Part shown: piece by piece, positions 4,997 through 26,419 of the stretch
How the letters are laid out: each line of letters opens with the position of its first letter
How positions within the stretch are numbered: position 1 is the stretch's first letter
Assembly (NCBI GenBank): GCA_905178155.1
Contig: CAJINV010000032.1
Span: 18,110 to 46,379, forward strand
Length of the DNA stretch: 28,270 nt
Direction of reading: 5' to 3'
DNA from: Amoebophrya sp. A120
Taxonomy: Eukaryota; Protista; Dinoflagellata
Made by a program: the position numbers and the translations under genes
The notes under the pieces: generated by a model
Told to the model about the DNA's origin: nothing
The model's database searches: none
The model's input: only the letters and a program-made list of their open reading frames with translations

Positions 4997-5276
4997 TATC
5001 CTGAGCAAAAACGTCCTCACCCCAGAGTCAAGATGGGAAATCCGCTAGACAAATCAGCCACCTCTGGTTGTTTCGCATGACAAGTTTATCCTCGTAGTGT
5101 AATCCTGTTCAGCTAGTTCCGAAGCATCACAGATCTAGCATATCATGCTGATTCTAGCATTACAAATTCCAAAACAGGATTAAGAAAATGGTTCTCATGG
5201 GGCTCCGCATGAGAAACTTTTTTGGCATACAGATTTGCATGACAACCCTGGTGTGGGGACATTTTTACTCAGGATA
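4997..5276. mobile_element. IR introner/MITE family B, outside CDS
   Basis: TATCCTGAGCAAAAACG...CATTTTTACTCAGGATA; 5-bp DR CCCTT/CCCTT. Confidence 0.92.
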
Positions 5277-5516
5277 CCCTTTTCAACATCGTCACCGGCG
5301 AGCATTGCACGGCTTCGTAGAGGTAGAGATTGATGTAGGGTTTGAAGAAAGCTTGCTTCTTTATCTGGTGGTTTATTCACTGCGAAGATTCTTCTTCACG
5401 GACTGGAAGCTTCAACATGAAGATCTGGTCGAAGTAGAAAAGTCGATTCTTTTTTGTTATGTTGTTTTCTTTCTAACTCGGAGTCGCGTTACGGGGATTT
5501 GCTTGGAGAAGACAGG

Positions 5517-5775
5517 TATCAACTGTAAAAATGTCTGGGCCTGCAAATTTGTGATGCATGGCAGTGAAAAGAAAGCATACTGTAGTGCGCCGCCAGGCAT
5601 GACAAATTTATCCTTGGCTCCCTGTTGCGTATTCCGCATGACAAACACCGTTTTTGCATGACAGATAAGAGGAGCTCTTGCTGGTCACGCAATACAGAGC
5701 TCCGCGTCATGCCCGACTAGCATGACAAATGCAAACTCCGCATCCTTCCAGACCCAGACACTTTTGCATTTGATA
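5517..5775. mobile_element. IR introner/MITE family A, outside CDS
   Basis: TATCAACTGTAAAAATGTCTGGG...CCCAGACACTTTTGCATTTGATA; DR ACAGG/ACAGG. Confidence 0.92.
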
Positions 5776-5836: not shown

Positions 5837-8800
5837 TCACTTCTTCTTAGCGGCAGGCTTTTTCTTCGCGGCAGCCTTCGCGGCCGCCTTTTCTTCCTTT
5901 TCTGCCTCCTTCTGGGCTTTCTTTTTCGCGGCCGCTGCAGCCTTTTCAACTTTCTCTTGCTCCTTCTGCGTATCAAATGCAAAAGTGTCTGGGTCTGGAA
6001 ACTTGTGTTGCTGATACTTGCATTGCAAACTTGCTGCGTGTACGGCATAACAGCATGAGAAATTTCCCTCGGCATTCCTTGGGGATTTCATTCGTATTTA
6101 GCATTACAAACTACCATATCCAGCACGACAAAAAAACTGGCCGATGGCATTCATGCATTACAGATCTTGTTGTCCTTGAAGTCCTGCATCACAAACCCAG
6201 ACCCGGACACATTTGCAATTCATACTGTGCCTTCTTGTCCTCGTCAGCCTTCGCCTTAGCGGCTTTAGCGGCGGCTTTTATCAAAGTGAAAAATCCCCCC
6301 TCCCCATACTAAAAAGGGATACTCCTGAAGATTTGTGATGGTGATTTGTAACCACAAATCGTCTCTGCATTGCACGAAGGCAACCCCAGCGACTCCGCTG
6401 CGTTGCGCAGGCAATTTGTGACGGTGTATCGCCTACAGAGGATGTGCCTGCCTTGCTAGGTGCCTACACCAAAACGCCCCTCCTCAGGCTGCGCACCTGC
6501 CTGCAGTCCTCTACTGCAACACAAAGCCGATTTGTGTACACAAATCCCGCATCACAGATTTCCATTTTGATCTGAGGCGGGGGGATTTTTCATTTTGATA
6601 GCTTTCGCGGCGGCTTTCTTCACCTTCTGGTCGTCTTTGTATGCCTGTTATCCTGAGTAAAAACGTACCCACACCAGAGTCAGGATGGGGAATCTGCTAG
6701 ACAAATCAGCCAGCTTTGGTTGTTTGGCATGACAAGTTTGTCCGCGTAGTGTAGTGCTGTTTGAGCTAGTGGAGCAGCATTACAGATCTAGCATCTCGTG
6801 CTGATTGGAGCATGACAAATTTCAAAACCGCATTAGAAAATGCTTCTCATGGGGCTCCGCATGAGAAACATTTTAAGCATGCAGAGTTGCATGACAACTA
6901 TGGCGTGGGTACGTTTTTACTCAGGATACCTGTACGGACAGACCAGCCGCAGTGGCAGCCTCCTTGATCTTATCAACTGCAAAAATATCTGGGTCTGGAT
7001 GAATGCCAGACTTGTCATGCAGGTTGTCCATGACCCATGAGGTTGAGGTCTCGGTCTGGTATGTAGGACATAGCATGACAGATTCTGTGAGAGTTCTATC
7101 ATGCCTATCCTGCATGAGAAACTCCCTCTCGATTAGGTCAAAAGTGGACAGCTTTTGGTAATCATGCAACACAGATTTTTACATGTTTCAGATTTAGCAT
7201 GACAAGTTGTTTTGTTCCAGACCCAGACATTTTTGCATTTGATAGATCTCCGCATTTTTCGCCGCCGCCTTTTCCCGCCTCTCCAGCACCTCTGGCTCGA
7301 AATTTTCCAGGGCCCGCTTCCACTTCGTCCCATTCCATCCTGGATCGAACAGTTCGTAGCCGTCGGCCAGCATCCGGGCAATCCAGTCCTTCTCGGCCTT
7401 ACCAATGTACAGGTGATAGCGTGTTCGACCACCAAAGGTTGCTGTGCTGTACTTTCTGAGTTCACAGAACCCTATGCAGTGCAAATATCTTCGATCTGGG
7501 TTTGGATGGATGCAGATGTCTGTCATTCGCATCCTCCCACAAGGCCTAGGCCATGCAAAGGGCCTTTAGCAATACAAACTTTCCAATAGGCGTGGGCCTG
7601 TAGGCCTAAATTCCGGTCGGTTGGTCGGTCGGTTGGTTGGTTTTGGACAGACGACAACTGACCGAACCCGCTCCATTGTGTTTTGTGTTTTTCTGAGATT
7701 CATCTATTATTACTGTTGAAGCTGCCTACCTACCCACCTACCTGGCGTCTTTTCGATTCATTGTAGTACCGTGATCGCACCGATCCACCTACCTACCTAT
7801 CCCTTGCCACCCAGAGACAGCTGCCTACTGGTCACGCCTACCGACCTACCCACCCACATGGTGGGTAGGTGGGGCGAGGGAGCGCGCGCTGCCTATTGGC
7901 CACGCCTACCGACCTACCGACCCACCAGCCTGGTGGGTGGGTGGGGCGAGGCAGGGCGCGCTGCCTATTGGCCACACCTACCGACCTACCCACCCACCTC
8001 GCTGGTGGGTGGGTGGGGCGAGGGAGCGTGCGCTGCGTATTGGCCACGCCTACCGACCTACCCACCCACCAGCCTGGTGGATGGGTGCGGCGAGCAAACG
8101 CTGTCTATTGGCCACGCCCACCGACCTACCCACCCACCTCGCTGGTGGGTGGGTGGGGCGAGCGTGCGCTGCCCCTTGGCTACGCCTACCGACCTACCCA
8201 CCCACGGGCCTGGTGGGCGGGTGGGGCGAGCGTGCGCTGCCTATTGACCACGCCTACCGACCTACCCGCCCACCTCGCAGGTGGGTGGGTGGGGTGAGCG
8301 TGTGTTGCCTCTTGGCCACGCCTACCGACCTACCCACCCACCTGCCTGGTGGGTGGGTGGAGCGAGCGCGCGCTGCCTATTGGCCGGGCTGCCGAGCGAC
8401 CTACCCACCCACCAGGCAGGTGGGGGTGTGGGGCGAGCGTGCGCTGCCTACTGGCCACGCCTACCGACCTACCCACCCACCTGCCTGGTGGGGGGGGGCG
8501 GGGCGAGCGTGCGTTGCCTATTGGCTACGCCTACCGACCCACCCACCCAGCTGCCAAGCGGGGGGGGGCGAGGGAGCGTGTGTTGGCTATTGGCCACGCC
8601 TACCGACCTACCAGCCCACCTGCCAAGCGGGGGGGGAGGGGGTGGGGCGAGCGTGCGTCGCCTATGGCCCAATCTATTAGCAGGGGGCTTGCAAGCAAGG
8701 GACTCGCGAAGCCAAGGGGTTGCGCAAAAAGCCCCCGCTCGGCTTGACCAAGCGGGGGCTGATCCAAATTTTGCGCGAATTTGTCTCTATTTCCCAAGTG

Positions 8801-11800: not shown

Positions 11801-14800
11801 CACCATCAGAAGTTGTTTGGAAAGGCTTGTACTTGCTGATTCATTCGGAAAATAACGCATGACAAGCTTCAATCCAGTATGTACGACAAAAAAACTGGCC
11901 CATCGCATTCATGCATCACAGATCTTCTTGTCCTTCAATTCTCGCATCACAAGTTATCCAGACCCAGATGAGATATTTGCAATGCATATCTGGGTGCATT
12001 GGGTCCTCGTAGTCGTCAACCCGAGCGATGTATCCTGTGCAAAAGTGTCGTACTTGAATTGCAATCATGCATTACAAATTTTTTTTGAAGGGTAAATCAG
12101 CATTACAAATTTTATTTCTCATGCTGAGGTAATTTGTATATGCATTTCTACGAGTACGATAATTTTGCAGTTCATACATTGCCGCGTGGGCGTCCATCAG
12201 CGCATTTCTCACGTTATCACACAGAAAAATAAGCAGGCAGGTCATAAAAGTTGTCATGCAAAAATAATTCAGACAAAAAAATCTGTATTGCAACTCCTAA
12301 ACAGCATGCGGCGGCGCCGCCCATGAAAGATTTTTCTGTGCATTCATTTTGGCATGACAAATTATATGCCCTGCTAGCTTTTTTCTCTGGGATACACGCG
12401 GACCGTAATCGCGGGCGAACAGCGTCACGTAGACCTTCTCGATGCTGGAAATCACGGGGTTCTCGGTGTGGTTGTCACACGCATCCCGCATGAGCTTCGC
12501 ATCGTTCGCGCAAGCGTCGCAGAGGAGAAGCTCGCTCGCCGCCAGGAAGTGTATCCAAGAAAAAAAGTGTGAAGTGTAAGTCTTTTGGGAAAACTGCATC
12601 ACAAGTTTGTCTGCCATGACAGGAAAAATTTGCTATGCGCAGATAGGAAGGGAAAAGAACTAGGAAGGGAGCCGATCATGCACGTCGAGCATGACAAGTG
12701 TAACTGTCTTGCATTTTCTGCATCACAGATTTACACTTACACAGTTTTTTTCTTGCATAAAGTGGAAAGTCGGTTTATTGCCCACGGCACTCGGTGCCTC
12801 GTCTTCTGGAGTCCTTTCGACACCAGCACCCGACCAAAACTCTGCCACTTCGTTTCCTACAGTGTCGAGTAGCGATTTGGTACAGTCCTCTTTCTCGCAG
12901 AGGCAGCACCGGTATGCATTGCAAAGATGTCTGGGTCCTCTGGAAGAATGCTGGTTTACGAAGATGCTAAAGTAAAAATCTCGGAGTGACACCAAAATCT
13001 GCATTGCAGGGGAAACACAACAAGCTGCTCACGAAGAAAGGTTTCTAGATATGGTAAAACGACCCGAGGTCAAGCCCGTGATGCTGTGCCCTGCAAACCA
13101 GACCTTCGGAGTCGTCCATTCAGCGCAAGACAAATTATTATACCTGCATCGTTCCAGATCTCCCAGACACTCTTGCAATTGATAGCCGTCCGATGTGCCA
13201 CTCCCGTTCGCTATGCTTGACCCACATCTTGCGGAACTTTTTCGACGTGTGACGTTTTTTCGGCACGACGTCTGGATTGTTTTTTTATCAAATGCAAAAA
13301 TGTCTGGGTCTGGAAGGTTGCAACTTGTGATGCTGTCTTTGGAAGGTAAAAAAAAACTGTATTGCATGACCAGCAAGAGGAGTTCCGTTTGTGCTACGCG
13401 AAGTGGGCGTTTCTCATGCGGAATACGCATCAGAAGGCCCTTTAAAAATCTGTGATTCTAGGTCATGCATTGATACGATACAATGACCGGCTATGCAAAA
13501 TATGCATGACAAACCTGGCAGTCTTCCAGGTCCAGACATTTTTGCACTTGATACCTTGCCTCCGCCATTGTCCTATGCATTGCAAAAGTATCGCATTCGT
13601 ATGTATGCATTACAAATTTCCTCAGCATGAGAAATGAAATTTGTAATCCGGATTTGCCTTAAGAAAAGGATTTGTAATGCAAGACTTGCATTTATACGAG
13701 TACGATGCTTTTGCACAGGATATGTCCGAGTCGTGCTCGTTCACGTACTCCTCCTATGGATTGCAAATATGTCTGGGTCTGGAAGAACCAAACTTGTGAT
13801 GCTGAATTTGGATGCTAAAAAAATCTGTATTGCATGAGCAGCAAGAGGAGTCAAATTTGGCTACGCGGAGAGGGCATTTGTCATGGAGGATGCGCATCGA
13901 TAGACGCTCAAAAAATCTGTGATGCTATGGCATGCATCGGAGACATCATGGATCATGGAAAATGTGCATGACAAACTTCTACTTTCCAGACCCAGACATT
14001 TTTGCATTCGATACCTCCTCATGTTGTCCCTCTGGCGGATTGTTCTTCTTTTTCCCCTATCAAATGCAAAAATGTCTGGGTCTGGAAACTCGTGGTGCAA
14101 GGAAGGGAATACTGGTGAAAACACTGTAATGCGCTGCCAAGCAAGACAAGTTTTTTCCATGGTTCTGAGTTGCGTACTCCGCATGAGAAACTGCGTTCGA
14201 GCATGACAGGCAAGACGAGCTCTTCGCGGCCATGCAACACAGAGTTCAGAGTCATGCCAGACAAGCATGACAAATCTCGCAATTTTCAAAACCCAGACAT
14301 TTTTGCATTTGATATCGCCCGCGGCTTCGGCTTGGCTCTCGCCTTTGCCGCGGCTTTTGCAGCAACCGCAATCGGTGGAGGAGGTGCTGGCACAGGTGGG
14401 AGTAGAAGGCTGTTCTTCTTGTTCGCTTTTTTGTCCGCACGGTTCTCGTTGTGGTCCGAGTGCATTATTCTACAGAAAAGTAGAAGTACACCGATAGATT
14501 GACCAGAAAAAAATTGTTGAATCTGTCATGGCGCTGTTTATGTTTTCTCGTCACAATAAAACGAGGCTCTATGAAGAAGAAGATCATGCTGATCATCCGC
14601 ATGAAAGTCGATAATTCTCTTTCAGCACGCTACACAAAAAGCTAAATCAGCAAGACAAATTTCTTTTTTTTCTGGCACCAGCATGGGTGTACAACATTTG
14701 TGTTTGCATGGGATAATATTATCCGTCTTCATCTCGTCTCCCTCGACTGAGTGTTTTTTGTTTTTCCTCGCTTGTTTTTTGTTCTCCTTCTTTTCCTTTT

Positions 14801-17800
14801 TTGACTTTTTGTCCTTTTTTTCTTTCTTCTTTTTGCCGTTGTCTTCACTTTCGTCGGCGTGGTTGTTCTCCTGGAGGAAACTCATGTTTTTGTCAAGAAC
14901 AACATCTGCGGGTGGTGAATCTTTACGCACAGCATTCTGGTCGAGGTCAAAGTCCTGGTTGTTCAGTAGCTGTCCGCCACTCGGTTCGTCCTCCTGAAAA
15001 AACACCACTGGCGTGTCCGAGAAGGGTTTATCGAACGCGTTGGGGTTCTTCTTCCTCATCTTCTCTAAGTGCTTGTCCCGCCTAGAATGGATGTACGCGT
15101 TCCAATATCCACTGCAAAAGTAATATCGCACTCGTACCAATTGTGCTTTTATGCATTACAAATCTTTTTCTTAAGTGAAATTCGCAATACAAATTGAATT
15201 TGACGTAATGCTAAGGCATCAATTTGTTGTAATGCATTTATACGAGTAGGAGTACGATACTTTTGCAATCTTCATATCAAAGTATCCGGGTCGAGCTTGA
15301 GCTCCTGGCTGTCGTTGTCCTCTTCATTCTTTTCGATTTCGGATAATTCGTATCAAATGTAAAAATGTCTGGGTCTGGAAGATTCTGACACTTGTCATGC
15401 ACGTTTTGCATGAGCCACGATGTCTGTGATGCATACCCTAGCAATACAGATTTTCTGAGGGCTTCTTGATGCCTATTCCGCATGACAAATGCCTTCTCAG
15501 CGTAGCAAAAATTGCATTCCCTTTGCTACTCATGCAATACAGATTTTTTTGGAATCCAAATGCAGCATCACAAGTTGCATTCTTCCAGACCCAAACATTT
15601 TTGATTTGATAATTCGTCGTCACCGAAGTCGAGATCCAGCTCCAGGTAGTTGTCATCGACAGGTGGTTCTTTCGCTTTTTTCGCGTTGACAAACTTGGCC
15701 TGGTTTTATGAAATGCAAAAGCATCGTACTAGTAGTAATCGCAGTACAAATTTGCTCAGCATGACAAATGGAATTTCTCATGCTGATTGACCTTGAAAAA
15801 AAGATTTGTCATGCATAAATGCGATTACTACGAGTACGATACTTTATTTGCACAGGATAGGTTTTCCCCGGCCCGATTCGAAGATTTCGTCTCCCGACTG
15901 CGGCCACGGTCGGGCTCATCCAGCTCCGCCTTCCGAAGTCTCGCTTCCTCCTCCTGTATGCAGTGCAAAGAAAAGTATCGTACTCGTATAAATGCATTAC
16001 AAATTTCCTCAGCATGAGAAATAAAATTTGTAATGCTGATCTACGTGAAGAAAGAGATTTGTAATGCATGCTTGCAATACGAATACGATACTTTTGCACA
16101 GGATATCCTGTTCTTCCTTCTGTTTTTCGCAAAATTTCTCCACCAGCTGGCCGAGCTTTTTCCTCATTTTTTTCGGCGGGAGATCCTGCATTTCCACGGT
16201 CACCAGCTCGGGATCACGCTGCTCGTACTGCACGAATAGGTGTGGCTTGGACTCGGGCGCAGTGTCGAGATTCTTTTCCCAGGAGACAACCCAGTACTGA
16301 GCAGGTGCTACATCGCCGTCCTCGTTTATGGAAGTGCACAAGAACTCCCTCTTCCCCGCATTTGTGTAAGCATGAACAGCAAGACAAACACCAGCACACG
16401 TGGATGCTGGTGGGCATGACAAGTTCATGCTCTCAGTGTAGTAGTACTGTTCTTTGGGCTATTTCAAAATTTGTGATGCGTAATTAGTGACACAAGGGAA
16501 CAACTGGAGTTGCGATTCATTTGCATGAGAAATGAGAACGAGGGGGAGTAGTTGTGCACTGTCATATCGCCGTCTTCGACGGGTTCGACCTCGACCTTCG
16601 CGTTTGATTTTTTCGCCGTGGGCTTCAAGTCATTGTCGACGAAATATCGTAAGGAAAAATCCCCCCTCCCCATATCGAAAAGGAACGCCGCAGAGAATTT
16701 GTGATGCTGATTTGTGACCACAAATCGCGTTTGTCTTGCAAGAAAGCAACGACATGGGCTCCGCCGCATTATGCAGGCGGTTTGTAATGCTGTTACAACT
16801 CCTACAGCATAAACGTTCCTCATGCCAAGTGCCTAGGCCAAAACCTTTCTGCATGGGCATGATATGGGCCTGCAGTGCTATCCAGCAAGACAGCTCTGAT
16901 TTGTGTACACAAATCCAGCATCAGAAGTTTCGTTTTGATATGGGGAGGGGGCATTTTTCCTTTTGATACGAAACACCACCGTCGCTCATCTTCCCCAGGA
17001 AAAGGCGTCTGCGTCCCGGCCCCCGGCTGGAACGCGAAGTCAAAGTCTATCCTGTGTAAAAACCTTCCCAGCACGACCCCAGAGTTGTCATGCAAATGCG
17101 CAATGACAGGAATCGATTTGGTGTGCGCATTTCCATGAGAGGCATGATTTCCAGTCGTGTTTTGGCATTTGTAATGGGAAACTTGTCATGCAGAACTTCC
17201 AAAACTTGGGGATTTGTGTTGCAGACTTCCCATCATGACTATGGTGTGGGGACGTTTTTACATAGGGTAAAGTCCTCGACGTCAACGTCGTCCTCGTCAG
17301 ACGACGACGAAGAATATCAAATGTAAAAATGTCTGGGTCTGGAAACTTGTGATGCTGGGGGGCGTCTCATGATGAGGCCACAAGTGCTGGCTCAGCATGA
17401 CAAGTTTCTGAGCTTCTAGGTGTTGCCTATTCTGCATGACAAACTGCATCTCTGCATCACAGAAAAATGGAGCTCTTGGGTAACGTGCATGACAGATTTA
17501 AGAGTCATACCAGACAAGCATGACAAACATGCATTCTTCCAGACCCAGACATTTTTACATTTCATAAAGAACAAACGCTCCACGAATTGCGATATGCACT
17601 GCAAATATGTCTGGGTCACTGGATGAGTGGAAGATTTGTCATGCGCATTTTGCATGACTCCTGATCGATCTGTGATGTATGCGCTGGCAACATGACAGGT
17701 TTCATTGTGAGGCCTCCTAATGCAGCCTAAGCCTACACAACATGAAAAGTGCCCCCTCCACGTAAGTAGCAGCTAGTGGACTCCTCTTGCTGCTCATGCA

Positions 17801-20800
17801 ATACAGATTTTTTTTAGAATCGCAAGACAGCATCAAAAGTTGCATTCTTCCAGACCCAGATCGATATTTGCACTCGATATGCGATAGCGGCGGGAGACTT
17901 TGACCCAAGGATTTTCTTCCTGGTGCTTCCTATGAATTGCAAAAGTATCGTACTAGTACGAATTACATATACAAATTTCCTCAGCATGAGAAATGGAATA
18001 TGTAATGCTGATTTCCCTCAAGGAAAAGATTTGTAATGCATAACTGCAATTACAACTACGAGTGCGATACAACTTTTGCACTGGATACTTCCATAGCGCC
18101 TCGTCACCGTAAAGGTCCTTTACGGTCCATTCTTCGTCGTTTCTGGGTTTTATCTCGCCCGTGCTATCCCACGAAACAACTGTTTCACTGTGATGGTTTT
18201 GCAAGATCTGCATCACAAGTTTGCTACACATGACACAGAAAATTTGTCATGCGCGTTTTCCAAGGGAAAACACGCTGAAAGATCCGTTGTGTTGCAGGTG
18301 TAGCAAGACAAACGCATTGGTGTTTCGCTCTCTGCATCACAGATTCACAATGAAGCAGTTTTTTCTTGCGATACGTTCTCTCGTCGATGTAGTGTTGGAA
18401 CACAGGCGTTGCGGTATTCTGAGTAAAAACGTCCCCACCCTCGAGTTGTCATGCGAAATTTGCACGCCAAAAAAGTTAGTCATGCGGAGCTGCATGCTGA
18501 GAGCCATTTTCTAGTTGTGTTTTGGAATTTGTCATGCTAGAAGCAGCATGATGCGCTAGATCTGTGATGCTGCTGAATTACCTAAACAGGACTACTCTAC
18601 CGGGACAAACTTGTCATGCGAAACAGCCATAGCTGGTTGATTTGTCTAGCAGATGTCCCATCTTGACTCTGGTATGCGGACACTTTTACTCAGGATATGC
18701 GCTACTATCAACCGGGACCTGCTGCTGCTGCTGCGGCGCGTCTGGGTTGTTGTAGCAGTACAGGTTCATGTTAAAGTCTGCCGCAGAAACGGCTCCGAAC
18801 TCATAATATGGTATCAAATGCAAAAATGTCTGGGTCTGGAAGAATGCAAGTTTGTCATGCAGCTTTTCCATGACCATCCACGAGGTCTGGAATGCAGGAC
18901 CTAGCATGACAGATTCATCTGTGTGATCTCTTTCGTGCCAATTGTGCATGAGAAACTCCCTGCCGACTTGGTCAAAAGTCGACAGCTTTTGGTAATGATG
19001 CAACACAGATTTTTGCATGATTCAGATTTAGCATGACAAGCTGCATTCAATTCTTCCAGACCCAGATATTTTTGCAGTGGATATTTGGCTGCTGGATACC
19101 AAAGTTACCGTCCGCCTGCGAAAGCGCTCCGTAGGTATACTGGTCATTCTGCATCAAACTTGACCCAGCTGCGCTCTCCATACCAGGAAAAACCGCTGGC
19201 GTTTCCGAGTAGTTCGCAAAGATCTCAGTGTTGTCGCGATTGTAGAAGTCGCTCGCATATCCTGTGCAAAAGTATCGCACTCGTAACGCAATCATGCATT
19301 TACAAATCTTTTCCTGAAAGCAAGTCACCTTTACACATATTATTTCTCATGCTGAGGAAATTTGTAAAATGCATTTATACGATTACGAGTACGATACTTT
19401 TGCACAGGATATCGCAATCGTCAGGCCACCTTTCAGCAGGTGAAATTGTCCCCCAGAAGAACCAAATGCGGTTCCAGACTGGAAATCAAGCGCAGAGCTG
19501 GTGCCTGGTTCTGCCACGCCACCCTCTTGGCCTGGGAAGGGGAGAACGCTTTCTCCTCCTACAGGTTCCGGCTGTTGATTCGATGAAGTTGTACTGGGAA
19601 CATTAAAATGTTGATAGTTAAATGAGTATCAAATGTAAAAATGTCTGGGTCTGGAAGAATGGAAGGCTTGTCATGCTTGTCTGGCATGACCCATGATGCT
19701 TGTAATGCATGACCCAGCATCACAGATTTTTGGAAAGCTTCCTGATGCCATTTCCGCATGACAAATGCCCTCCTCGCGTAGCACACATGTGGCTCCTCTT
19801 GCTGGTCATGCAGTACACATTTTTTTAGAGTCCAAAGTTAGCATCACAAGTTCCAACTTTCCAGACTCAGACATTTTTACATTTGATAAGGAGTTGAAAA
19901 CGTTCCGTTCGCCATGTTGATCCTCGTCCTGGGGTATGGATTGCAAATATGTCTGGGTCTGGAAACTTGTGATGCTGGCTGGCGTATCATGAGGAGGCCA
20001 CAAGTACTGGCTTAGCATGACAAGTTTCTGAGCTTCTAGGTGTTCCCTATATTGCATGACAAACTGCGTCTCTGCATGACAGAAAAGTGGCGCTCTTGGG
20101 TAACGTGCATGACAGATTTGAGAGTCATGCCAGACAAGCATGACAAACATGCACTCTTCCAGACCCAGACATTTTTACATTTGATATGGGGCAACAGAAA
20201 TTCGCGCGCAGCAGTCGCCGACGTTGAACTACTGCTTGCAGCCGCAAATGCAGGAGCAGGAGCCGACGATGAGCTACTACTTGCAGCCGCAAAGGCCCTT
20301 TTCTGCCCGCCGGTACTAGAGGTCATGATCTCAGCAGCCGGTAGAAGTTTTTCTCGATCTGAGTGTAGTTGAGCCTCCTTGTTGTCTCGTGGTGCTTTGC
20401 TCATCTTCCCAGATGAAGCTCCAGCTTCAACAGCAGCAACCGCTGTCGTGGCTGTTGGACGACTAGAAGTCTATCACAAGAAAAAAGTGCTACAGTTACA
20501 CATCTGTTGTAAGTTCAGCAACACAAATTTTCTCTGTGTGGCAGAGAAAATTTGCAATGCAGAGATCCTATGGGAAAACACGTACGAAATGAAGTTTGGA
20601 TGCATTTATTGCATGACAAAGGGTGTCTGTCTTGCGGCTCCTGCAACACAATGTGTAACTGTAGCATTTTTTTCTTGCGATAAAGTCGCCGCGGTTTTTC
20701 GGGGTCGACCACGCCCGCGTTTTGCGGCTGGAGGAGCACTTATTTCTTCATCTTGCGGTCGTGCCTCAATGCGATCAGGATTGTTCTTTTCCGACAGCGG

Positions 20801-23800
20801 CACACCTGTCACAGGGTCGAGCTGTGGTGGAGCAGCAGCGTCCAACGGCTTCGAGGCCGGTCCTTGTTGCGAAGGTTTTATTTGTCCCTCCGCTGCAGCT
20901 GCCGAGCTGCTTTTCGCATCCTGGGACGTCGATGAGATGATTTTCATGTGGGACGATCTACTCACGACCTCCTTGTCCGCGTGGTCAACATCCGCTAACA
21001 CACTAACGCCGGTGCCAACGCCGTTGTCCGGGTTTTCTTCCGTGAGAGGCGGCTCAGCAGCTAAGGTAGTTGGATGTTCCTTTGCAGCTTCTTTCCCGGC
21101 GGCGAATGCTGGTCCTTGTCCATCAGAAGTTTGTTCTGGCCACTTGGCGTTCTTGCCGGAAACTTGCTGTCGTGCACTGCTCAGTTGTCCATGATCTCGA
21201 AGGTCGTCGTCTTCGGACTTGATGTCGAGCTGTTTGTGCATGTTCGCATCTTGTTCCGGGCGCTTGACATTGATGTCCTTGTTGCAACTCCCAGTGAAGA
21301 TTTCACTGATATTATTCTGAACGCCTTTCTTGGCCATCGTCTTGAGCTGGGGAGCAGCGGCATCCAACGGCTTCGCGGCCGGTCCTTGTATCAAATGCAA
21401 AAATGTCTGGGTCTGGAAGGATGCAACTTGTAATGCTAGCTTTGGACTCTACACAAAATCTGTCTTGCATGACCAGCAAGAGGAGTTCAGTTTGTGCTCC
21501 GCGGGGAGGGCATTTGTCATGCGGAATAGGCATCAGGAGGGTCGCTAAAAATCTGTGATGCTAGATCATGCATTACAGACATCCTGAGTCATGCAAAATA
21601 TGCATGACAAACTCCTGCATGCGTCCAGACCCAGATATTTTTGCATTTGATACCTTGTAGTTGCGCAGGTTTTATTTGTACCTCCACTGCAGCTGCCGAG
21701 CTGCTTTTCGCATCCTGGGAAGATTTTTGGATGATCTTCATGTCCGACGATCTACTCACGACCTTGTCCGCCTGGTCAACATCCGCTAACACATCAACGC
21801 GAGTGCCAACGCCGTTGTCCGTTTTTTCTTCCGTAAGAGGCGGCTCAGCAGCTAAGGTAGTTGGATGTTCATTTCCAGCTTCTTTCCCGGCGGCGGATGC
21901 TGGTGCTTGTGCGTCAGAAGTTTGCTGTTGCCACTTGGCGTTCTTGCCGGAAACCTGCTGTCGTGCTGCACTCAGTTGTCCCTGATCTCCAAGGTCGTCG
22001 CCTTCGGACTTGACGAGCTGTTTGTGCATGGTCGCATCTTCCTATGACAGTGCACAACTCCCCCTCCCCCTCATTTGTGTAGCATGAACAGCAATACTGT
22101 AAGCATCAGCAAGAGTGCCGGCTTTGCATGACAAATTCACACTCGAGTGTAGTGCTATTTCGGCTGCCAGAACTTGCCAAGCTAACAGTGCCAAGAGGCA
22201 AAGGGGGGACTGGGTATTTTGCATGACAAATCAGGGGGAGGGGGGGTTGTGCAGTGTCATACTTTCCCGGCGGCGGATGCTGGTCCTTGTGCGTCAGAAG
22301 TATGTTCTTGCCACTTGGCGTTGCCAGAAGCCTGCTGTCGTGCACTGCTCAGCTGTCCATGATCTCCAAGGTCCTCGTCTTCGGACTTGATGTCGAGCTG
22401 TTTATGCATGTTCGCATCTTGTTCCGGGCACTTCACGTTGATGTTGTCCTTTTTGCAATCATTCCCAGTGAAGCTTTTTTCCCCGGAAAAAGAACCACTC
22501 TGACCGCCTTTCTTGACCGTCGTCTTGGCTTTATTCGGTTTAGCCTTGTCGTGCTTGTTCTGCTGTAGCTTAGGAAGATCGGGCTGTTGTTTTTCTTGTG
22601 CATCGTCAACAGTAGTGTTTATTTCCTTGCAGTTCTTCAGAAGACTGCTAGAGCTACCTGGAACCACGTGCGACGCCCCGGCCGCGGGTTTGGCCTGCGG
22701 GTTTTTGTTTCTCTGGTGCTCACCGTCGGCAGATTTTTCCTTCTGCCCCTTGCTGAGTTTCGCGTTGCAGCTCATTGGCGAGATGTCGCTCACACTATCC
22801 TGCAGCAGGGTCATATGGGAGTGTCAGGATTGAAATCGTCAAAGTTGAAATAGTTTGTCATGCAGGAAATGGAGCGCAAAGACTGCCTCTATTGCAGAGG
22901 ACGCAAGGGAGGCACATTGTAGTGCTGGTAAGGGTCGACAGAGGGAAGCCCCATTGCCCTGAACAGCATGACAAACTGGCTTCCGGTACGGACAAAATTT
23001 GTCATGCGCCGACTAGAAACTGCGGGTCCAATTGGTATCCATTTTATGCATGACAAATCATTTCAACTTTGTCGATTTCAAACCTGACGCTTCCATAGGT
23101 CACTGGTTGAGCTTCAGCAGTCGCCACTTGTGGCCCAACAGTCCTGCCTCCTTTGCTGGATGCGCCCTTTGCTTTTTGCTTTTTCATCTTTGTAGTTGTG
23201 GGCTGCTCTTGTCCAGCAATTTTTCCAGCATCACGTTTGTTGTTGCTCCCCCCGACAATATGAGCTGGTTTTATCGTGGGAAAAAAATGTCTCAGTGCCA
23301 ACTTGTAATGCGCAAGAACCTCCTTGACAAGACAATTGCTTGCCATGCTCAACGTGCAAAAAAGCCGGCTTTCGCTGCTTGTGTTTTCCCTTTTATGTGG
23401 TCTGACGCATCACAGATTTTCAACATCTGTGTCATTCTGAGCAAATAATTTGTATTGCTGAGTCTGCAATCAAGGATCCAAAACTTTGGGACTGAGACAG
23501 ATTTTTCTTGCGATAAGTGCGGCCACGCAACTACTGCTGCTGTTTCTTTTCGCAGGAGGGAGACCAAGCTCACTGTCATCCCGACCACGCTTCGTGGCGC
23601 GCCCATCGGGTACGGGTACTTCGTGTCTGGACGTCGTGTCTTTGGAGCTCGCTGCTACTCCTATCAGGGGCGCAGCTTCATCTGATAACTCTCGATCACC
23701 GACAGGCCATTTCGATTGTTCTTTCTTGCCGGCGCCGTCGTGTGCCTTTTGCGGCGCACCTCCACGCACATTTGCTTTCGTTGCAGCAGGAGTTGCCGGC

Positions 23801-26300
23801 CGCTTGGAAGTTGATTTTCGATTGTTTTTCTTGGTTTCCTGTGCTTTCGCAACCTCCTTTCCACCGAGCGATCGGCCCCTCGTCTTCGACGAAACCGTAT
23901 CACCTGCAAAAATGTTTGGGTTCTTTGGAAGAGCCAAAGTTGTGATCATGCTGCATTTGGATGCTAAAAAAATCTGTATTGCATGAGGAGCAAGAGGAGG
24001 TAAATTTCGCTACGCGGAGAGGGGGCATTTGTCATGCAGAATGCGCATCGATGGGCGCTCAAAAAATCTGTGATGCTACTTATGGCATACATCACAGAAA
24101 TCATGGATCACGGAAAATGTGCATGACAAACTCCTCCTCTTCCAGACCCAGATATATTTGCAGTTGATATGCCTCCGCCTCGAATTTCTTCAAAGACGCG
24201 ACTGATCCTGGGGCGACGGGTATCCTGAGGAAAAACGTCCCCACCCCAGAGTTGTCATGCAGATTTGCAATGGCAAGGACATTTGTGATGCACATACCTA
24301 TGGTAAACATTTCCAATCGTGTTTTGGAATTTGTGATGCTATGAACAGGATAAGGAGACGGATTTGTTATGCGGCTTCCCTTGCTAAGCTGCACTACAGT
24401 ACAGTGTGCAACTTCGCATGCGTGACTCCCAAAGCTTCTAGGTTTGTGTTGCAAAGTCCCCATCTTGCCTCTGGTGTGGGGACGTTTTTACTCAGGATAA
24501 CGGGCGGCTTCCGATCTCCAACCTTAGAGGATGAGGACGAGGTCGAAGAGAGTACTGGCACCAGCGATGCCTGCTGATTCATCTTCCCGGAGTCGTTATT
24601 TCCTGCGCGTTATGCATTGCAAATATGTCTGGGTCTGGAAGGTGAGAACTTGTGATGCTAACTTTGGACTCTAAGAAAATCTGTATTGCAGGACCAGCAA
24701 GACGAGCCCAGTTTGTGCTACGCGGGGAGGGCATTTGTCGTGCGGGATATGCATTAGGAAGGCCTTTAAAAATATGTGATGCTAGATCATGCATTACAGA
24801 CATCCTGAGTCATGCGAAATATGCATGACAAACCTGGCAACCTTCCAGACCCAGACATTTTTGCATTTGATACGCGTGCTGTATTTAAAGACGAGGCTGC
24901 CGCTGCAGTGGAGCTGGACTCCTGCTTCTTCTTGATGCCCGCGCCTACATCTTCCGCATTGTTCGTCTTCCCACTGCGTGCACGTGAGCGAGAACCTGCT
25001 TTCCCCTGCTGTGCACCTCTTGGTGCTACCGGAGGCATATGAACTGCAAAAATTGTATCGCACTCGTCGTGTAAATGCATTTACAAATTTCCTCAGCATG
25101 AGCAATGAAATTTGTAATGCGGATTTAGTTTAAGAAAAATATTTGTAATGCATGCATGACTGCAATTACTCCGAGTACGAAACTTTTGCACAGGATAAGG
25201 TACCAGAGCCGGAGGTTTGGCGGCCAGAACAGCCGACGAACTCGAGCTTGGTTGTCCCGGAGCGTTTGGTATGCATTGCAAATATGTCTGGGGCTGCGGC
25301 TGGAAACTTGTAATGCTAAAAGTGAATGGTAGACGCACTGCAATACGCAGCTACGCAAGACAAATTTTTTGGCTGCCATGTCTTACGTATTCCGCATGGC
25401 AAACTGCGTTTTTGCATGACAGGCAGCAGGGCCTTTCCGTGCCTAGGCAACACAGATTCATCTCGAGTCATGCCACACAAACATGACAAAGTTGCATTCT
25501 TCCAGACCCAGACACTTTCACAGTTGATATTGGGGCGATGCGGCCTGGGAGATTTGCATCCCGCGGCCAGGATTTTCTCCGCCAGGTTCTTCTCCCCATG
25601 TGTGCCGCCTTTTGGTGCTACCGGAGGTATATGAACTGCAAAAATTGCATCGCACTCGTGTAAATGCATTACACATTTCCTCAGCATGAGAAATGAAATT
25701 TGTAATGCGGATTTAGCTTAAGAAAAAAATTTGTAATGCATGATTGCAATTACTACGAGTGCGAGTACGAAACTTTTGCACAGGATAAGGTACCACAGCC
25801 GGAGGTTTGGCGGCCGGAACAGCCACCGCTAGCTGTACGTGCTTCGCATCCGGTTTCTGCACACCGGATTTGACAGATTTCGCATCGCCCCGAGAACAAG
25901 CTCTCGCTTTCGAGGCGGCGAGCCGCCTGGGTGCTACCGGAGGTACCAGAGCCGGAGGTTTGGCGGCCGGAACAGCAGACGAGCTGGAGCTTGATTGTCC
26001 CGAAGCGTTGGCGGGTATGCATTGCAAATATGTCTGGGTCTGGAAGGTTGCAACTTGTCATGCTGTCTCTGGATCGTGCAAAAATCTGTGTTGCATGAAT
26101 GCCAGAAGCTGTCCACTTTTGACCAAGTTGAGAGCAGTTTCTCATGCAGGATCGGCATGATAGAGATCTCACAGAATCTGTCACGCTAGGCCCTGCATTC
26201 TGCATTCCAGACAACATGGATCATGGAAAATCTGCATGACAAATCTCGGAACCTTCCAGACCCAGACACTTTTGCATTTGATACTGGGACGATGCGCCAT
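5837..26300 (-). CDS. Large (~2284 aa) putative DNA/chromatin-binding protein, 49 exons: low-complexity and repeat-rich N-terminal half, AT-hook, acidic middle, Cys/His motifs, Lys/Ala-rich C-terminal tail
   Basis: Inter-element segments (each includes both DR copies; drop 5 nt per junction): 26284-26300, 25788-26015, 25530-25629, 25198-25269, 24873-25037, 24500-24610, 24170-24220, 23516-23897, 23098-23271, 22262-22813, 21653-22042, 20683-21388, 20187-20471, 19889-19934, 19412-19626, 19084-19257, 18698-18811, 18374-18414, 18088-18164, 17880-17930, 17567-17592, 17270-17314, 16969-17047, 16567-16644, 16106-16326, 15860-15956, 15612-15706, 15277-15350, 14716-15105, 14315-14465, 14014-14057, 13723-13754, 13554-13573, 13185-13285, 12760-12912, 12395-12551, 12177-12214, 11989-12030, 11689-11712, 11500-11538, 10981-11202, 10675-10737, 10277-10392, 9740-10070, 7245-7472, 6929-6970, 6601-6648, 6225-6278, 5837-5970. 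Sum 7095 - 48x5 = 6855 nt = 2285 codons; all 48 junctions checked by hand stay in one stop-free frame (MAHRP...AAKKKPAAKKK*). The start codon is uncertain because the frame stays open upstream. Confidence 0.9.
5971..6224. mobile_element. IR introner family A (intron)
   Basis: TATCAAATGCAAAAGTGTCTGGGTCTGG...TTGCAATTCATA; DR CTGCG/CTGTG; frame restored. Confidence 0.9.
6279..6600. mobile_element. IR introner family C (intron)
   Basis: TATCAAAGTGAAAAATCCCCC...GGGGATTTTTCATTTTGATA; DR GCTTT/GCTTT. Confidence 0.92.
6649..6928. mobile_element. IR introner family B (intron)
   Basis: TATCCTGAGTAAAAACGTACCCAC...GTGGGTACGTTTTTACTCAGGATA; DR CCTGT/CCTGT. Confidence 0.93.
6971..7244. mobile_element. 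IR introner family A (intron)
   Basis: Family A TIRs; DR GATCT/GATCT. Confidence 0.93.
7826..8668. repeat. ~65-70 bp tandem repeat inside the nested element
   Basis: Unit approx. TATTGGCCACGCCTACCGACCTACCCACCCACC-N-GGTGGGTGGGTGGGGCGAGCGTGCGCTGCC, roughly a dozen copies. Confidence 0.95.
8925..9210. repeat. Array of GCARCACAGAT(TTG) motifs inside the nested element
   Basis: About a dozen copies, e.g. 8927, 9003, 9036, 9060, 9136, 9158, 9179, separated by GCGC-rich spacers. Confidence 0.85.
10071..10276. mobile_element. IR introner family D (intron)
   Basis: TATGGAAAGAAAAAAGTTTGTCAC...GTGACGAACTTTTTTTGTTTGATA; DR ATCTT/ATCTT. Confidence 0.9.
10393..10674. mobile_element. IR introner family B (intron)
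   Basis: Family B TIRs; DR CAACT/CAACT. Confidence 0.93.
10738..10980. mobile_element. IR introner family E (intron)
   Basis: TATGACAGTGCACAACACCCCCTCCCCC...GGGGGAGTTGTGCAGTCTCATA; DR TGCTG/TGCAT. Confidence 0.9.
11203..11499. mobile_element. IR introner family A (intron)
   Basis: TATCCACTGCAAATAT...ATATTTGCAGTGCATA; DR TAGAC/TACAC. Confidence 0.88.
11539..11688. mobile_element. IR introner family F (intron)
   Basis: TATCCTGTGCAAAAGTATCG...CGATGCTTTTGCATTTCATA; DR AAACT/AAGCT. Confidence 0.9.
11713..11988. mobile_element. IR introner family A (intron)
   Basis: Family A TIRs; DR TCTGG/TCTGG. Confidence 0.92.
12031..12176. mobile_element. IR introner family F (intron)
   Basis: Family F TIRs; DR CGATG/CATTG; frame restored. 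Confidence 0.88.
12215..12394. mobile_element. IR introner family G (intron)
   Basis: TATCACACAGAAAAATAAGC...GCTTTTTTCTCTGGGATA; DR CACGT/CACGC. Confidence 0.87.
12552..12759. mobile_element. IR introner family H (intron)
   Basis: TATCCAAGAAAAAAAGTGTGAAGTGTAA...TTACACTTACACAGTTTTTTTCTTGCATA; DR AAGTG/AAGTG. Confidence 0.92.
12913..13184. mobile_element. IR introner family A, diverged (intron)
   Basis: TATGCATTGCAAAGATGTCTGGG...CCCAGACACTCTTGCAATTGATA; DR ACCGG/GCCGT. Confidence 0.87.
13286..13553. mobile_element. IR introner family A (intron)
   Basis: Family A TIRs; DR decayed TTTTT/CCTTG; frame restored. Confidence 0.87.
13574..13722. mobile_element. IR introner family F (intron)
   Basis: Family F, opposite orientation to 11539-11688; DR TGTCC/TGTCC. 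Confidence 0.92.
13755..14013. mobile_element. IR introner family A (intron)
   Basis: Family A TIRs; DR CCTCC/CCTCC. Confidence 0.92.
14058..14314. mobile_element. IR introner family A (intron)
   Basis: Family A TIRs; DR TCCCC/TCGCC. Confidence 0.91.
14466..14715. mobile_element. Highly degenerate IR introner (intron)
   Basis: TATTCTACAGAAAAGTAGAAGTACACC...GGTGTACAACATTTGTGTTTGCATGGGATA; DR lost (TGCAT/ATATT); removal +5 nt joins MKTD to SDHNEN in frame. Confidence 0.7.
15106..15276. mobile_element. IR introner family F (intron)
   Basis: Family F TIRs; DR TCCAA/TCAAA. Confidence 0.88.
15351..15611. mobile_element. IR introner family A (intron)
   Basis: Family A TIRs; DR ATTCG/ATTCG. Confidence 0.92.
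15707..15859. mobile_element. IR introner family F (intron)
   Basis: Family F TIRs; DR GGTTT/GGTTT. Confidence 0.92.
15957..16105. mobile_element. IR introner family F (intron)
   Basis: Family F TIRs; DR TCCTG/TCCTG. Confidence 0.92.
16327..16566. mobile_element. IR introner family E (intron)
   Basis: TATGGAAGTGCACAAG...GTTGTGCACTGTCATA; DR TCGTT/TCGCC. Confidence 0.88.
16645..16968. mobile_element. IR introner family C (intron)
   Basis: TATCGTAAGGAAAAATCCCCCTCCCCATATC...GATATGGGGAGGGGGCATTTTTCCTTTTGATA; DR CGAAA/CGAAA. Confidence 0.92.
17048..17269. mobile_element. IR introner family B (intron)
   Basis: TATCCTGTGTAAAAAC...GTTTTTACATAGGGTA; DR AAGTC/AAGTC. Confidence 0.9.
17315..17566. 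mobile_element. IR introner family A (intron)
   Basis: Family A TIRs; DR AAGAA/AAGAA; near-identical to 19935-20186. Confidence 0.93.
17593..17879. mobile_element. IR introner family A (intron)
   Basis: Family A TIRs; DR TGCGA/TGCGA. Confidence 0.92.
17931..18087. mobile_element. IR introner family F (intron)
   Basis: Family F TIRs; DR CTTCC/CTTCC. Confidence 0.92.
18165..18373. mobile_element. IR introner family H-like (intron)
   Basis: TATCCCACGAAACAACTGTTTCACTGTGA...TCACAATGAAGCAGTTTTTTCTTGCGATA; DR CGTGC/CGTTC. Confidence 0.88.
18415..18697. mobile_element. IR introner family B (intron), inverted relative to 6649-6928
   Basis: Interior is the reverse complement of the 4997 and 6649 copies; DR TGCGG/TGCGC. 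Confidence 0.92.
18812..19083. mobile_element. IR introner family A (intron)
   Basis: Family A TIRs; DR TATGG/TTTGG. Confidence 0.91.
19258..19411. mobile_element. IR introner family F (intron)
   Basis: TATCCTGTGCAAAAGTATCG...CGATACTTTTGCACAGGATA; DR TCGCA/TCGCA. Confidence 0.93.
19627..19888. mobile_element. IR introner family A (intron)
   Basis: Family A TIRs; DR ATGAG/AGGAG. Confidence 0.91.
19935..20186. mobile_element. IR introner family A (intron)
   Basis: Family A TIRs; DR TGGGG/TGGGG. Confidence 0.93.
20472..20682. mobile_element. IR introner family H-like (intron)
   Basis: TATCACAAGAAAAAAGTGCTACAGTTACACAT...ATGTGTAACTGTAGCATTTTTTTCTTGCGATA; DR AAGTC/AAGTC. Confidence 0.92.
21389..21652. 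mobile_element. IR introner family A (intron)
   Basis: Family A TIRs; DR CCTTG/CCTTG; empty paralogous site at 20862-20866. Confidence 0.94.
22043..22261. mobile_element. IR introner family E (intron)
   Basis: TATGACAGTGCACAACTCCCCCTCCCCC...GGGGGTTGTGCAGTGTCATA; DR CTTCC/CTTTC. Confidence 0.91.
22814..23097. mobile_element. IR introner family I with ~50-bp TIR (intron)
   Basis: TATGGGAGTGTCAGGATTGAAATCGTCAAAGTTGAAAT...ATTTCAACTTTGTCGATTTCAAACCTGACGCTTCCATA; DR GGTCA/GGTCA. Confidence 0.92.
23272..23515. mobile_element. IR introner family H-like, diverged (intron)
   Basis: TATCGTGGGAAAAAAATGTCTCAGT...ACTGAGACAGATTTTTCTTGCGATA; DR decayed GGTTT/AGTGC; frame restored. Confidence 0.85.
23898..24169. 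mobile_element. IR introner family A (intron)
   Basis: Family A TIRs; DR decayed AACCG/TGCCT; frame restored. Confidence 0.87.
24221..24499. mobile_element. IR introner family B (intron)
   Basis: Family B TIRs; DR ACGGG/ACGGG. Confidence 0.93.
24611..24872. mobile_element. IR introner family A (intron)
   Basis: Family A TIRs; DR CGCGT/CGCGT; very similar to 21389-21652. Confidence 0.93.
25038..25197. mobile_element. IR introner family F (intron)
   Basis: Family F TIRs; DR AGGCA/AGGTA. Confidence 0.92.
25270..25529. mobile_element. IR introner family A (intron)
   Basis: Family A TIRs; DR TTTGG/TTGGG. Confidence 0.9.
25630..25787. mobile_element. IR introner family F (intron)
   Basis: Family F TIRs; DR AGGTA/AGGTA; empty paralogous site at 25941-25945. 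Confidence 0.93.
26016..26283. mobile_element. IR introner family A (intron)
   Basis: Family A TIRs; DR GCGGG/CTGGG. Confidence 0.9.
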
Positions 26301-26419
26301 GGCAGATTTGCTCCCCGGTGCAGAGGCGGGATCCCACGGAAAAGCATCCCCATAACAGAAAAACGCTGAATTTGCGTTGCTGTTTTTCTGTCCCAAAACA
26401 AAGCGGCGCGCGTCAAGAT

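What the first reader, a model, noticed from the sequence alone, without database searches (positions are those of the whole stretch)
5966..26288. No conserved splice dinucleotides in any register
Seen: the 5-bp DRs are arbitrary (GCTTT, CCTGT, GATCT, AAGAA, TGGGG, CGCGT...). Wherever the cut falls inside the DR, the ends cannot be consistently GT-AG, GC-AG or AT-AC. The only invariant marks are the element's own TAT/ATA ends, offset by 5 nt in total from the junction. Inference: the cut is measured from the base of the terminal stem, more like a transposase's staggered cut or a structure-guided endonuclease/ligase than U1/U2 recognition.
Basis: partly seen in the sequence, partly recalled or inferred. 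Interest (0 to 1): 0.8.

Follow-up and report, generated by a model that had tools for sequence, protein, structure and literature searches.

The report
Hairpin-measured introns cut at fixed offsets
One gene of a parasitic marine dinoflagellate carries 48 transposon-like inserts that lack normal splice signals, an oddity already published for this organism; where the cut can be pinned down it falls one base before and four bases after the insert's hairpin, so the cell likely measures from the hairpin, probably with a modified spliceosome.

Summary
Observation confirmed and already published: these are the TAT…ATA introner elements of Amoebophrya sp. A120 (public gene models match 100%; Farhat 2021 reports no splice signature). 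Removing 48 elements plus 5 nt each gives one stop-free 2,324-codon frame on the minus strand. RNA-type contigs show the element+5 skips. No register gives more than 3 of 48 GT-AG. The intron starts 1 nt before TAT and ends 4 nt after ATA. This fits 14 of 14 informative junctions (2 exactly); the next-best registers fit 11 and 10. The paper calls this position variable or unknown. So the first base and last four bases are free, but U+2/A+3 are invariant, like GUA. All 18 predominant non-canonical pairs in the paper's Table S4 also have T at +2. A ruler measured from the stem is supported. The transposase analogy is not, because the cuts lie outside the repeat ends. The catalyst is untested: modified spliceosome about 0.55, separate euglenid-like nuclease/ligase about 0.35. 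The scan noted similar hairpin-set introns on other DNA (unchecked notes).

The parts
5837..26300 (-). Host gene, about 2,284 aa of unknown function, split by 48 elements; start Met inferred (the frame stays open to 26420)
   Evidence: 2,324 stop-free codons after removing each element+5 nt. and 37/42/43: public A120 proteins P0001 and P0002/P0003 match. No Pfam family for P0001.
5971..26283 (-). 48 TAT...ATA inverted-repeat elements, each flanked by a 5-bp direct repeat; intron = element plus 4 nt on its left and 1 nt on its right in + coordinates
   Evidence: Elements: 5971-6224, 6279-6600, 6649-6928, 6971-7244, 7473-9739, 10071-10276, 10393-10674, 10738-10980, 11203-11499, 11539-11688, 11713-11988, 12031-12176, 12215-12394, 12552-12759, 12913-13184, 13286-13553, 13574-13722, 13755-14013, 14058-14314, 14466-14715, 15106-15276, 15351-15611, 15707-15859, 15957-16105, 16327-16566, 16645-16968, 17048-17269, 17315-17566, 17593-17879, 17931-18087, 18165-18373, 18415-18697, 18812-19083, 19258-19411, 19627-19888, 19935-20186, 20472-20682, 21389-21652, 22043-22261, 22814-23097, 23272-23515, 23898-24169, 24221-24499, 24611-24872, 25038-25197, 25270-25529, 25630-25787, 26016-26283
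14462..14716 (-). Intron fixed exactly at register 1/4 (element 14466-14715; repeat copies TGCAT / ATATT on +); sense ends TT...GC
   Evidence: joint 14461>14717 skips 255 with 0 ambiguous letters. P0001 agrees.
13282..13554 (-). Intron fixed exactly at register 1/4 (element 13286-13553; repeat copies TTTTT / CCTTG on +); sense ends GT...AA; long terminal stem
   Evidence: table 5c: joint 13281>13723, whose in-between letters are the microexon from 13555. Fold z = -7.25, 0 of 200 shuffles as stable.
14054..14315 (-). Intron, register limited to 0-2 (element 14058-14314)
   Evidence: joint 14052>14315 skips 262 with 2 ambiguous letters (flagged 'between: not known'). P0001 agrees.
15102..15277 (-). 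Intron, register limited to 0-2 (element 15106-15276)
   Evidence: joint 15100>15277 skips 176 with 2 ambiguous letters (flagged 'between: not known'). P0001 agrees.
18808..19084 (-). Intron, register limited to 0-1 (element 18812-19083)
   Evidence: P0002 residue at the junction; the contig piece begins at 19083.
12909..13185 (-). Intron, register 0 excluded (element 12913-13184)
   Evidence: P0001 residue at the junction; gene model only.
7469..9740 (-). 2.27-kb intron: an element carrying a nested insert of about 1.95 kb, removed in register 0-1
   Evidence: P0001 spans it; the contig piece begins at 9740; 80-bp inverted arms 7587-7666 / 9438-9517.
17048..17269 (-). Variant element whose sense end starts TAC instead of TAT (third terminal pair broken); the frame is still restored
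   Evidence: P0002 spans it.
4997..5775 (.). Two more elements (4997-5276, 5517-5775) with perfect 5-bp repeats downstream of the stop codon; splicing not tested

Best explanation
The 48 inserts are transposon-like elements with paired ends that are absent from the gene's RNA-type contigs and gene models, cut 1 nt before the TAT and 4 nt after the ATA wherever this can be fixed, likely by a modified spliceosome that would measure from the terminal hairpin instead of reading GT and AG. Step 1 (inferred): a transposase inserts a non-autonomous element in either orientation and duplicates 5 bp of exon. Step 2 (predicted fold): the two ends pair in the pre-mRNA. Step 3 (shown for part of the gene): element+5 nt is removed in one register, so the mRNA keeps 4 nt of the upstream copy and 1 nt of the downstream copy. 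Step 4 (inferred): because 1+4 equals the duplication length, any insertion into any exon in either orientation is removed without a scar, which would explain the invasion. Step 5 (inferred, untested): the catalyst is the U2/U5/U6 core, with a stem-binding factor in place of U1/U2AF; the element's own UA supplies intron positions +2/+3, while the first base and the last four bases are not read.
For: Frame restored over 48 of 48 elements. Five exon-exon joints skip exactly L+5, and one further joint spans two elements and their microexon. Public gene models agree with L+5 at 33 of 34 junctions. Register 1/4 fits 14 of 14 informative junctions against 11, 10, 5, 2 and 1 for registers 0, 2, 3, 4 and 5; rough chance under a random register 2e-5, or 8e-4 from the six contig-based limits alone. 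Terminal three positions are Watson-Crick in 143 of 144 pairs, positions 9-13 in 42-47 of 48. Family members sit in both orientations (15 opposite-strand pairs). For the spliceosome: T at +2 in 48 of 48, and in 9 of 9 predominant A120 and 9 of 9 predominant A25 non-canonical pairs of Table S4, although A25 repeats start TTA; 3 of 48 are ordinary GT-AG in the same register; 83 of 89 spliceosomal proteins and U2/U4/U5/U6 are reported in A120 while U1 was not found, whereas a canonical-intron Amoebophrya has U1; Fritillaria precedent.
Against: Only 2 junctions are fixed exactly. The 14 come from one gene, and the gene models probably rest on RNA data like those, so the two sources are not independent. 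The contig run's RNA status is the tool's guess and no DNA run was laid beside it. Nine of the 23 imperfect repeats give no limit. One model junction (15707) does not fit L+5; it repeats the 6-nt ambiguous overlap, which I read as an annotation artefact. Against the spliceosome: no preference for G+1, A-2, G-1 or G-G/A-C first-last pairs (9 of 48, p = 0.24), no branch-point-like motif favouring the sense 3' arm, and no difference between the 5' and 3' arms (repeat bases at background in 102 more elements). U+2/A+3 lie inside the predicted stem and may only be a by-product of the transposon end. Table S4 calls may be biased by aligners that favour GT/CT/AT ends.
Confidence: 0.55

Rival explanations
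1. Same fixed 1/4 ruler, but a separate, spliceosome-independent machine (structure-guided endonuclease plus RNA ligase, or a second splicing system as proposed for euglenid nonconventional introns) cuts at the base of the stem and releases linear or circular RNA.
For: Complete freedom of the first and last bases, no branch-point or polarity signal, identical arms. In Euglena, fixed spacers (3 nt and 5-6 nt) between a paired motif and the cuts were shown by knock-in (PMC12501133). Exons as short as 15-21 nt and a 2.27-kb intron are handled alike.
Against: No such enzyme is known or found here. U+2/A+3 match the spliceosomal donor in two strains with different repeat ends. Some of these introns are GT-AG in the same register. 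U1 was not detected although 35% of introns are canonical, which points to change in the spliceosome itself.
Confidence: 0.35
2. The cut wanders within the repeat from intron to intron (as the 2021 paper's figure legend suggests), or sits flush with one element end (TA donor or TA acceptor), as a transposase-like cut would.
For: PMC7789003 Fig. 3 legend calls the splice sites variable relative to the hairpin, and Fig. S23 legend gives offsets of 1-5 nt. Register 0 fits 11 of 14 junctions.
Against: Register 0 fails at 14466, 13286 and 12913; registers 2-5 fail at 4 to 13 junctions. No TA-xx or xx-TA pair is among the 18 predominant pairs of Table S4. Perfect repeats make aligners scatter junctions, which explains the apparent variability.
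Confidence: 0.08
3. The joined forms are DNA: excised or never-inserted alleles, not splicing.
For: The run that shows the joints is only guessed to be RNA, and no DNA run was laid.
Against: One contig skips several elements in a row; exon pieces show 0 differences from the window; the junctions are hybrids of the two repeat copies in one register; the gene cannot be read unless all 48 elements are removed.
Confidence: 0.02

Closest known systems
Introner elements / non-canonical introns of Amoebophrya sp. A120 (Farhat et al. 2021, PMC7789003)
   Same: This is that system. Public A120 proteins match at 100%; repeats start TAT + 7 nt + AAA; 3-5 nt direct repeats; about 240-nt introns; no dinucleotide signature; an alternative mechanism was already proposed.
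   Different: In the text and legends I read, the paper treats the splice position relative to the hairpin as variable or unknown and does not remark on U at +2. Here one register (1 nt / 4 nt) fits all informative junctions. [quoted passage not shown]
Euglenid nonconventional introns (Nomura et al. 2025, PMC12501133; review PMC11282704)
   Same: MITE-like ends, terminal pairing, no GT-AG, cuts at fixed spacer lengths from a paired motif, unknown machinery.
   Different: Motif CDG/CHG with spacers 3 and 5-6 nt and a purine at the exon start; here TAT/ATA with 1 and 4 nt and no preference at the exon start. Circular products are reported for euglenids (via the review) and untested here.
Fritillaria borealis non-canonical introns (Soo et al. 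2026, PMC13326754; Henriet 2019 via review)
   Same: Transposon-derived introns with TIR and TSD, removed despite non-GT-AG ends; a modified major spliceosome is implicated.
   Different: AG-AC / AG-AT dominate and U1 is kept; 45-55% of ends can form isosteric first-last pairs. Here first-last pairs are at background and U1 was not detected.
Micromonas / Aureococcus introners (review PMC11282704)
   Same: Non-autonomous DNA transposons whose target-site duplication is absorbed at splicing.
   Different: They carry or co-opt canonical splice sites, so only some insertion sites work; here no site sequence is needed.

Membership tests
Amoebophrya A120 introner elements | Terminal inverted repeat starting TAT, seven looser bases, then a run of A | tested here: met
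   47 of 48 TAT; A at positions 11-13 in 42-46 of 48; definition
Amoebophrya A120 introner elements | 3-5 nt direct repeat at the boundaries | tested here: met
   5 bp; 201 of 240 positions match; 169 of 232 perfect in other loci
Amoebophrya A120 introner elements | Removed from transcripts at non-GT-AG ends | tested here: met
   Five L+5 joints plus one double joint in a run guessed to be RNA; 33 of 34 gene-model junctions
Amoebophrya A120 introner elements | Repeated families in that genome | tested here: met
   Related copies in the window; at least 128 loci with an exact 30-nt end; A120-named proteins match 100%
U2-type spliceosomal intron | GT/GC donor and AG acceptor | tested here: not met
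   3 of 48 and 1 of 102 GT-AG in the supported register; only U+2 and A+3 are kept
U2-type spliceosomal intron | Branch-point motif near the 3' end on the sense strand | tested here: inconclusive
   YTRAY in the last 70 nt: 14 of 48 sense against 19 of 48 antisense; this organism's consensus is unknown to me
U2-type spliceosomal intron | Excision as a 2'-5' lariat, dependent on U2/U5/U6 | not testable with these tools
   Needs lariat sequencing or knockdown
U12-type intron | AT-AC or GT-AG with the U12 donor and branch motifs; U11/U12 snRNAs | tested here: not met
   AT-AC in 1 of 48 and 5 of 102, near chance; minor snRNAs reported absent
Euglenid-type nonconventional intron | Paired terminal motif at fixed spacer lengths from the cuts | tested here: met
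   Fixed 1/4 offsets at 14 of 14 informative junctions; motif and spacers differ from Euglena
Euglenid-type nonconventional intron | 5'-N3CDG ... CHG-N5-6|R signature | tested here: not met
   Ends are TAT/ATA; exon-start base at background
Euglenid-type nonconventional intron | Full-length circular excision product | not testable with these tools
   No raw reads covering this gene were found
MITE (non-autonomous TIR DNA transposon) | Short, TIRs, constant-length TSD, either orientation | tested here: met
   146-324 nt (47 of 48), 5-bp TSD, both orientations
MITE (non-autonomous TIR DNA transposon) | Cognate autonomous element or transposase | not tested
   No genome is held; PMC12130899 passages mention candidate elements in A120
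Group I/II self-splicing intron | Conserved catalytic core | tested here: not met
   0 Rfam matches in the window; element bodies differ between families

The most novel reading that the evidence does not exclude
Amoebophrya runs a sequence-blind splicing ruler: a machine that binds the transposon's terminal hairpin and cuts 1 nt upstream and 4 nt downstream, exactly the 5-bp duplication, so every insertion in either orientation is erased from mRNA. It is either a U1-free spliceosome that keeps only the U+2/A+3 contact, or a new lariat-free splicing system that arose independently of the euglenid one.
Probability: 0.5. Interest if true: 0.8.

Novelty: already known. Interest (0 to 1): 0.5.

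Why it matters
How more than 60% of introns in this parasite are removed without GT-AG has been open since 2021. A single register turns 'variable, unknown' splice sites into a rule that can be tested. It says where to look for the lariat's 5' base or the circle junction, and which bases to mutate (U+2 versus pairing, spacer lengths). It also lets tens of thousands of gene models be corrected. And it offers a reason for the invasion: the cut offsets add up to the transposon's duplication length, so insertions cost nothing in protein sequence.

Tried and rejected
No genome is held for the window, so snRNAs, Prp8 and transposases could not be searched. Three raw RNA runs with the same species label (X10-X12) laid only 163, 9 and 164 reads, nearly all only partly and on element parts; they gave nothing on junctions. 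The run search listed no holder on record as RNA. Ten of the 15 joints shown join element copies to each other and were set aside as repeats from other loci; 27 further joints were not shown. Protein searches with two N-terminal exons found nothing (0 of 6,195 candidates; 0), so the junctions at 22043, 23272, 23898 and 26016 stay untested. A stop-codon test of the register in other loci was uninformative (0 of 21 imperfect repeats). A shortage of C at intron +1 in the window (5 of 48, p = 0.013 uncorrected) did not repeat in 102 other elements (24 of 102) and was rejected. Frame-keeping excisions of L-1, L+2 and L+8 were rejected: no canonical register, and the contigs show L+5. My first coordinates for one element (23899-24170) were off by one and corrected to 23898-24169 from then on. 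Pfam and Rfam gave 0 hits. Roy et al. 2023 is not held. No earlier notes exist for this place.

Full report
Scope and identity. The finding concerns the junctions of repeated elements between 5966 and 26288. A repeat scan and a script found short elements with inverted ends starting TAT and ending ATA, flanked by 5-bp direct repeats. I curated 48 inside one gene and 2 downstream of it. Two exons used as protein queries each returned one 100% identical public protein, labelled Amoebophrya sp. A120. Farhat et al. 2021 (PMC7789003; I read sections 10 and 11, passages, Table S4 rows and supplementary legends, but no figures) describe exactly these introner elements: inverted repeats beginning TAT, 3-5 nt direct repeats, no clear splice signature, splice position relative to the hairpin 'variable' or 'unknown', U1 not detected. 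The system and the lack of a dinucleotide signature are therefore already known.

Observation. Of 48 repeats, 25 are perfect; 201 of 240 positions match against a shuffle mean of 65 and maximum of 99; only length 5 stands out; 44 different 5-mers occur. Removing each element plus 5 nt yields one stop-free frame of 2,324 codons on the minus strand in every register. In no register are more than 3 of 48 junctions GT-AG, 1 GC-AG or 1 AT-AC; other frame-keeping lengths give at most 4 GT-AG plus 8 AT-AC. There, 169 of 232 elements called without using the repeat had a perfect 5-bp repeat. In 102 of 265 elements whose gene strand could be assigned by reading frame, repeat bases were at background and 1 was GT-AG. 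Corrections: one element begins TAC; registers 0 and 5 have an invariant TA at one end; register 1 has an invariant T at +2.

The elements leave the RNA as element+5. One contig run, guessed by the tool to be RNA, tiles the exons with no differences in the exon pieces shown. Among the 15 of 42 joints shown, five are exon-exon skips: 264, 262, 255, 176 and 266 nt, each the element length plus 5. One of eight rows with in-between letters spans two elements and their microexon. The other ten joints link element copies and were set aside. Three raw-read RNA runs did not cover the exons, and no DNA run was laid. Public gene models agree with element+5 at 23 of 24 and 10 of 10 junctions. The exception, at 15707, has two extra residues that equal the 6-nt ambiguous overlap counted twice; I read this as an artefact (inference).

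The register is fixed. Where the two repeat copies differ, the mRNA shows which copy each base came from. Let k be the number of bases before TAT (sense strand) that go with the intron. Joint 14461>14717 has no ambiguity and gives k = 1; the 13281 joint also gives k = 1; two joints allow 0-2 (both flagged 'between: not known'); two contig piece ends allow 0-1, which is weaker evidence. The gene models add eight more junctions. Of 23 imperfect repeats, 14 give a limit; of the other nine, five are silent in protein and four lie outside the models. Register 1 fits 14 of 14; registers 0, 2, 3, 4 and 5 fit 11, 10, 5, 2 and 1; rough chance under a random register is 2e-5, or 8e-4 for the six contig-based limits. 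The intron therefore starts 1 nt before TAT and ends 4 nt after ATA. Limits: one gene, two exact sites, and gene models that are probably not independent of the RNA data. A genome-wide hint agrees: all nine predominant A120 non-canonical pairs in Table S4 have T second (GT-AC, CT-AG, AT-AG, GT-CG, GT-AA, CT-AC, AT-AT, AT-AC, TT-AG), all nine A25 pairs start TT, and none starts or ends with TA. Aligner bias may contribute.

What is read and what is not. In this register the first base (A15, G14, T14, C5) and the last four bases follow exon background. AG ends 5 of 48. G-G or A-C first-last pairs are 9 of 48 (p = 0.24). The two arms do not differ, and branch-like motifs do not favour the sense 3' arm. 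The terminal three positions pair in 143 of 144 cases and positions 9-13 in 42-47 of 48; predicted pairing of the outermost pair exceeds 0.5 in 32 of 47 folds; related copies lie in both orientations. One intron folds with z = -7.25. Exons run down to 15 nt, and a 2.27-kb element with a nested insert is removed in a compatible register. All of this fits cuts set by distance from the paired ends.

Mechanism. Shown: anatomy, element+5 removal, one register at the informative sites. Inferred: transposase insertion with a 5-bp duplication; stem formation in vivo; and that 1+4 = 5 makes any insertion scar-free, which would explain the spread. The transposase analogy does not describe the RNA cut, since the cuts fall outside both element ends. 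The catalyst is untested. I put a modified spliceosome at about 0.55: U+2/A+3 match the canonical GUA (my knowledge) in two strains with different ends; some members are plain GT-AG; 83 of 89 spliceosomal proteins are present while U1 was not found; an Amoebophrya with canonical introns has U1 (10.1101/2024.09.05.611473, passages); and Fritillaria shows that a spliceosome can adapt (PMC13326754, abstract and section 30; PMC11282704 section 6). I put a separate nuclease/ligase at about 0.35: no first/last base or branch signal is seen, U+2 may be a by-product of the transposon end, and Euglena nonconventional introns use fixed spacers from a paired motif (PMC12501133, abstract and sections 8 and 12).

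Novelty. Filed as already known: same organism, same elements, same stated puzzle. Eight searches and passages of PMC12130899, PMC11453091, PMC9860276 and PMC12621601 (abstract of the last) showed no statement of a fixed 1/4 register or of the conserved U+2. However, the 2021 paper's figures 3 and S19-S23 could not be seen and may show a modal offset, Roy et al. 2023 is not held, and most subscription papers are outside the library. Earlier AI notes of this scan describe similar hairpin-bounded introns in other genomes; I did not test them. Interest 0.5: a known oddity, but the register makes the open question about its machinery directly testable.

Noticed in passing
window 7473-9739: An introner split by a nested insert of about 1.95 kb with its own 80-bp near-perfect inverted arms (7587-7666 / 9438-9517), an 8-9-bp direct repeat on its flanks and GC-rich tandem repeats inside (about 68-nt unit at 7800-8645); it looks like a second non-autonomous transposon family. 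The 2.27-kb whole is still spanned by the gene model.
   Followed up: partly
window 5837-26300 (-): The public annotation splits this gene into partial models (906 aa and 314/315 aa found; none found for two N-terminal exons). The element+5 rule joins it into one frame of about 2,284 aa with no ordinary introns, internal repeats and a Lys/Ala-rich tail; no Pfam family for the 906-aa part.
   Followed up: partly
window 15707-15859: The public model has two extra residues here, equal to counting the 6-nt ambiguous overlap twice; probably a systematic annotation error at perfect repeats.
   Followed up: partly
window 24873-26015: An exon stretch is tandemly repeated: elements 25038-25197 and 25630-25787 are similar and sit in the same context, while a third copy of that context near 25935-25950 has no element (an empty site).
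   Followed up: no
window 1-890 and 26330-28270: GC-rich tandem arrays at both window ends (35-nt unit, about 25 copies; about 234-242-nt unit, at least 7 copies).
   Followed up: no
window 4997-5276 and 5517-5775: Two elements with perfect repeats lie downstream of the stop codon; whether they are spliced from a 3' UTR is unknown.
   Followed up: no
window 15351-15384, 19000-19040, 24457-24499: Raw RNA reads of 2026 with the same species label match only element ends and continue into other sequence, so element-end sequence is present in total RNA (retained or unspliced copies from other loci, or another strain).
   Followed up: no
window 1900-3100: Two diverged copies of a roughly 350-nt sequence (about 2020-2300 and 2855-3080) outside the gene, without TAT/ATA ends.
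   Followed up: no
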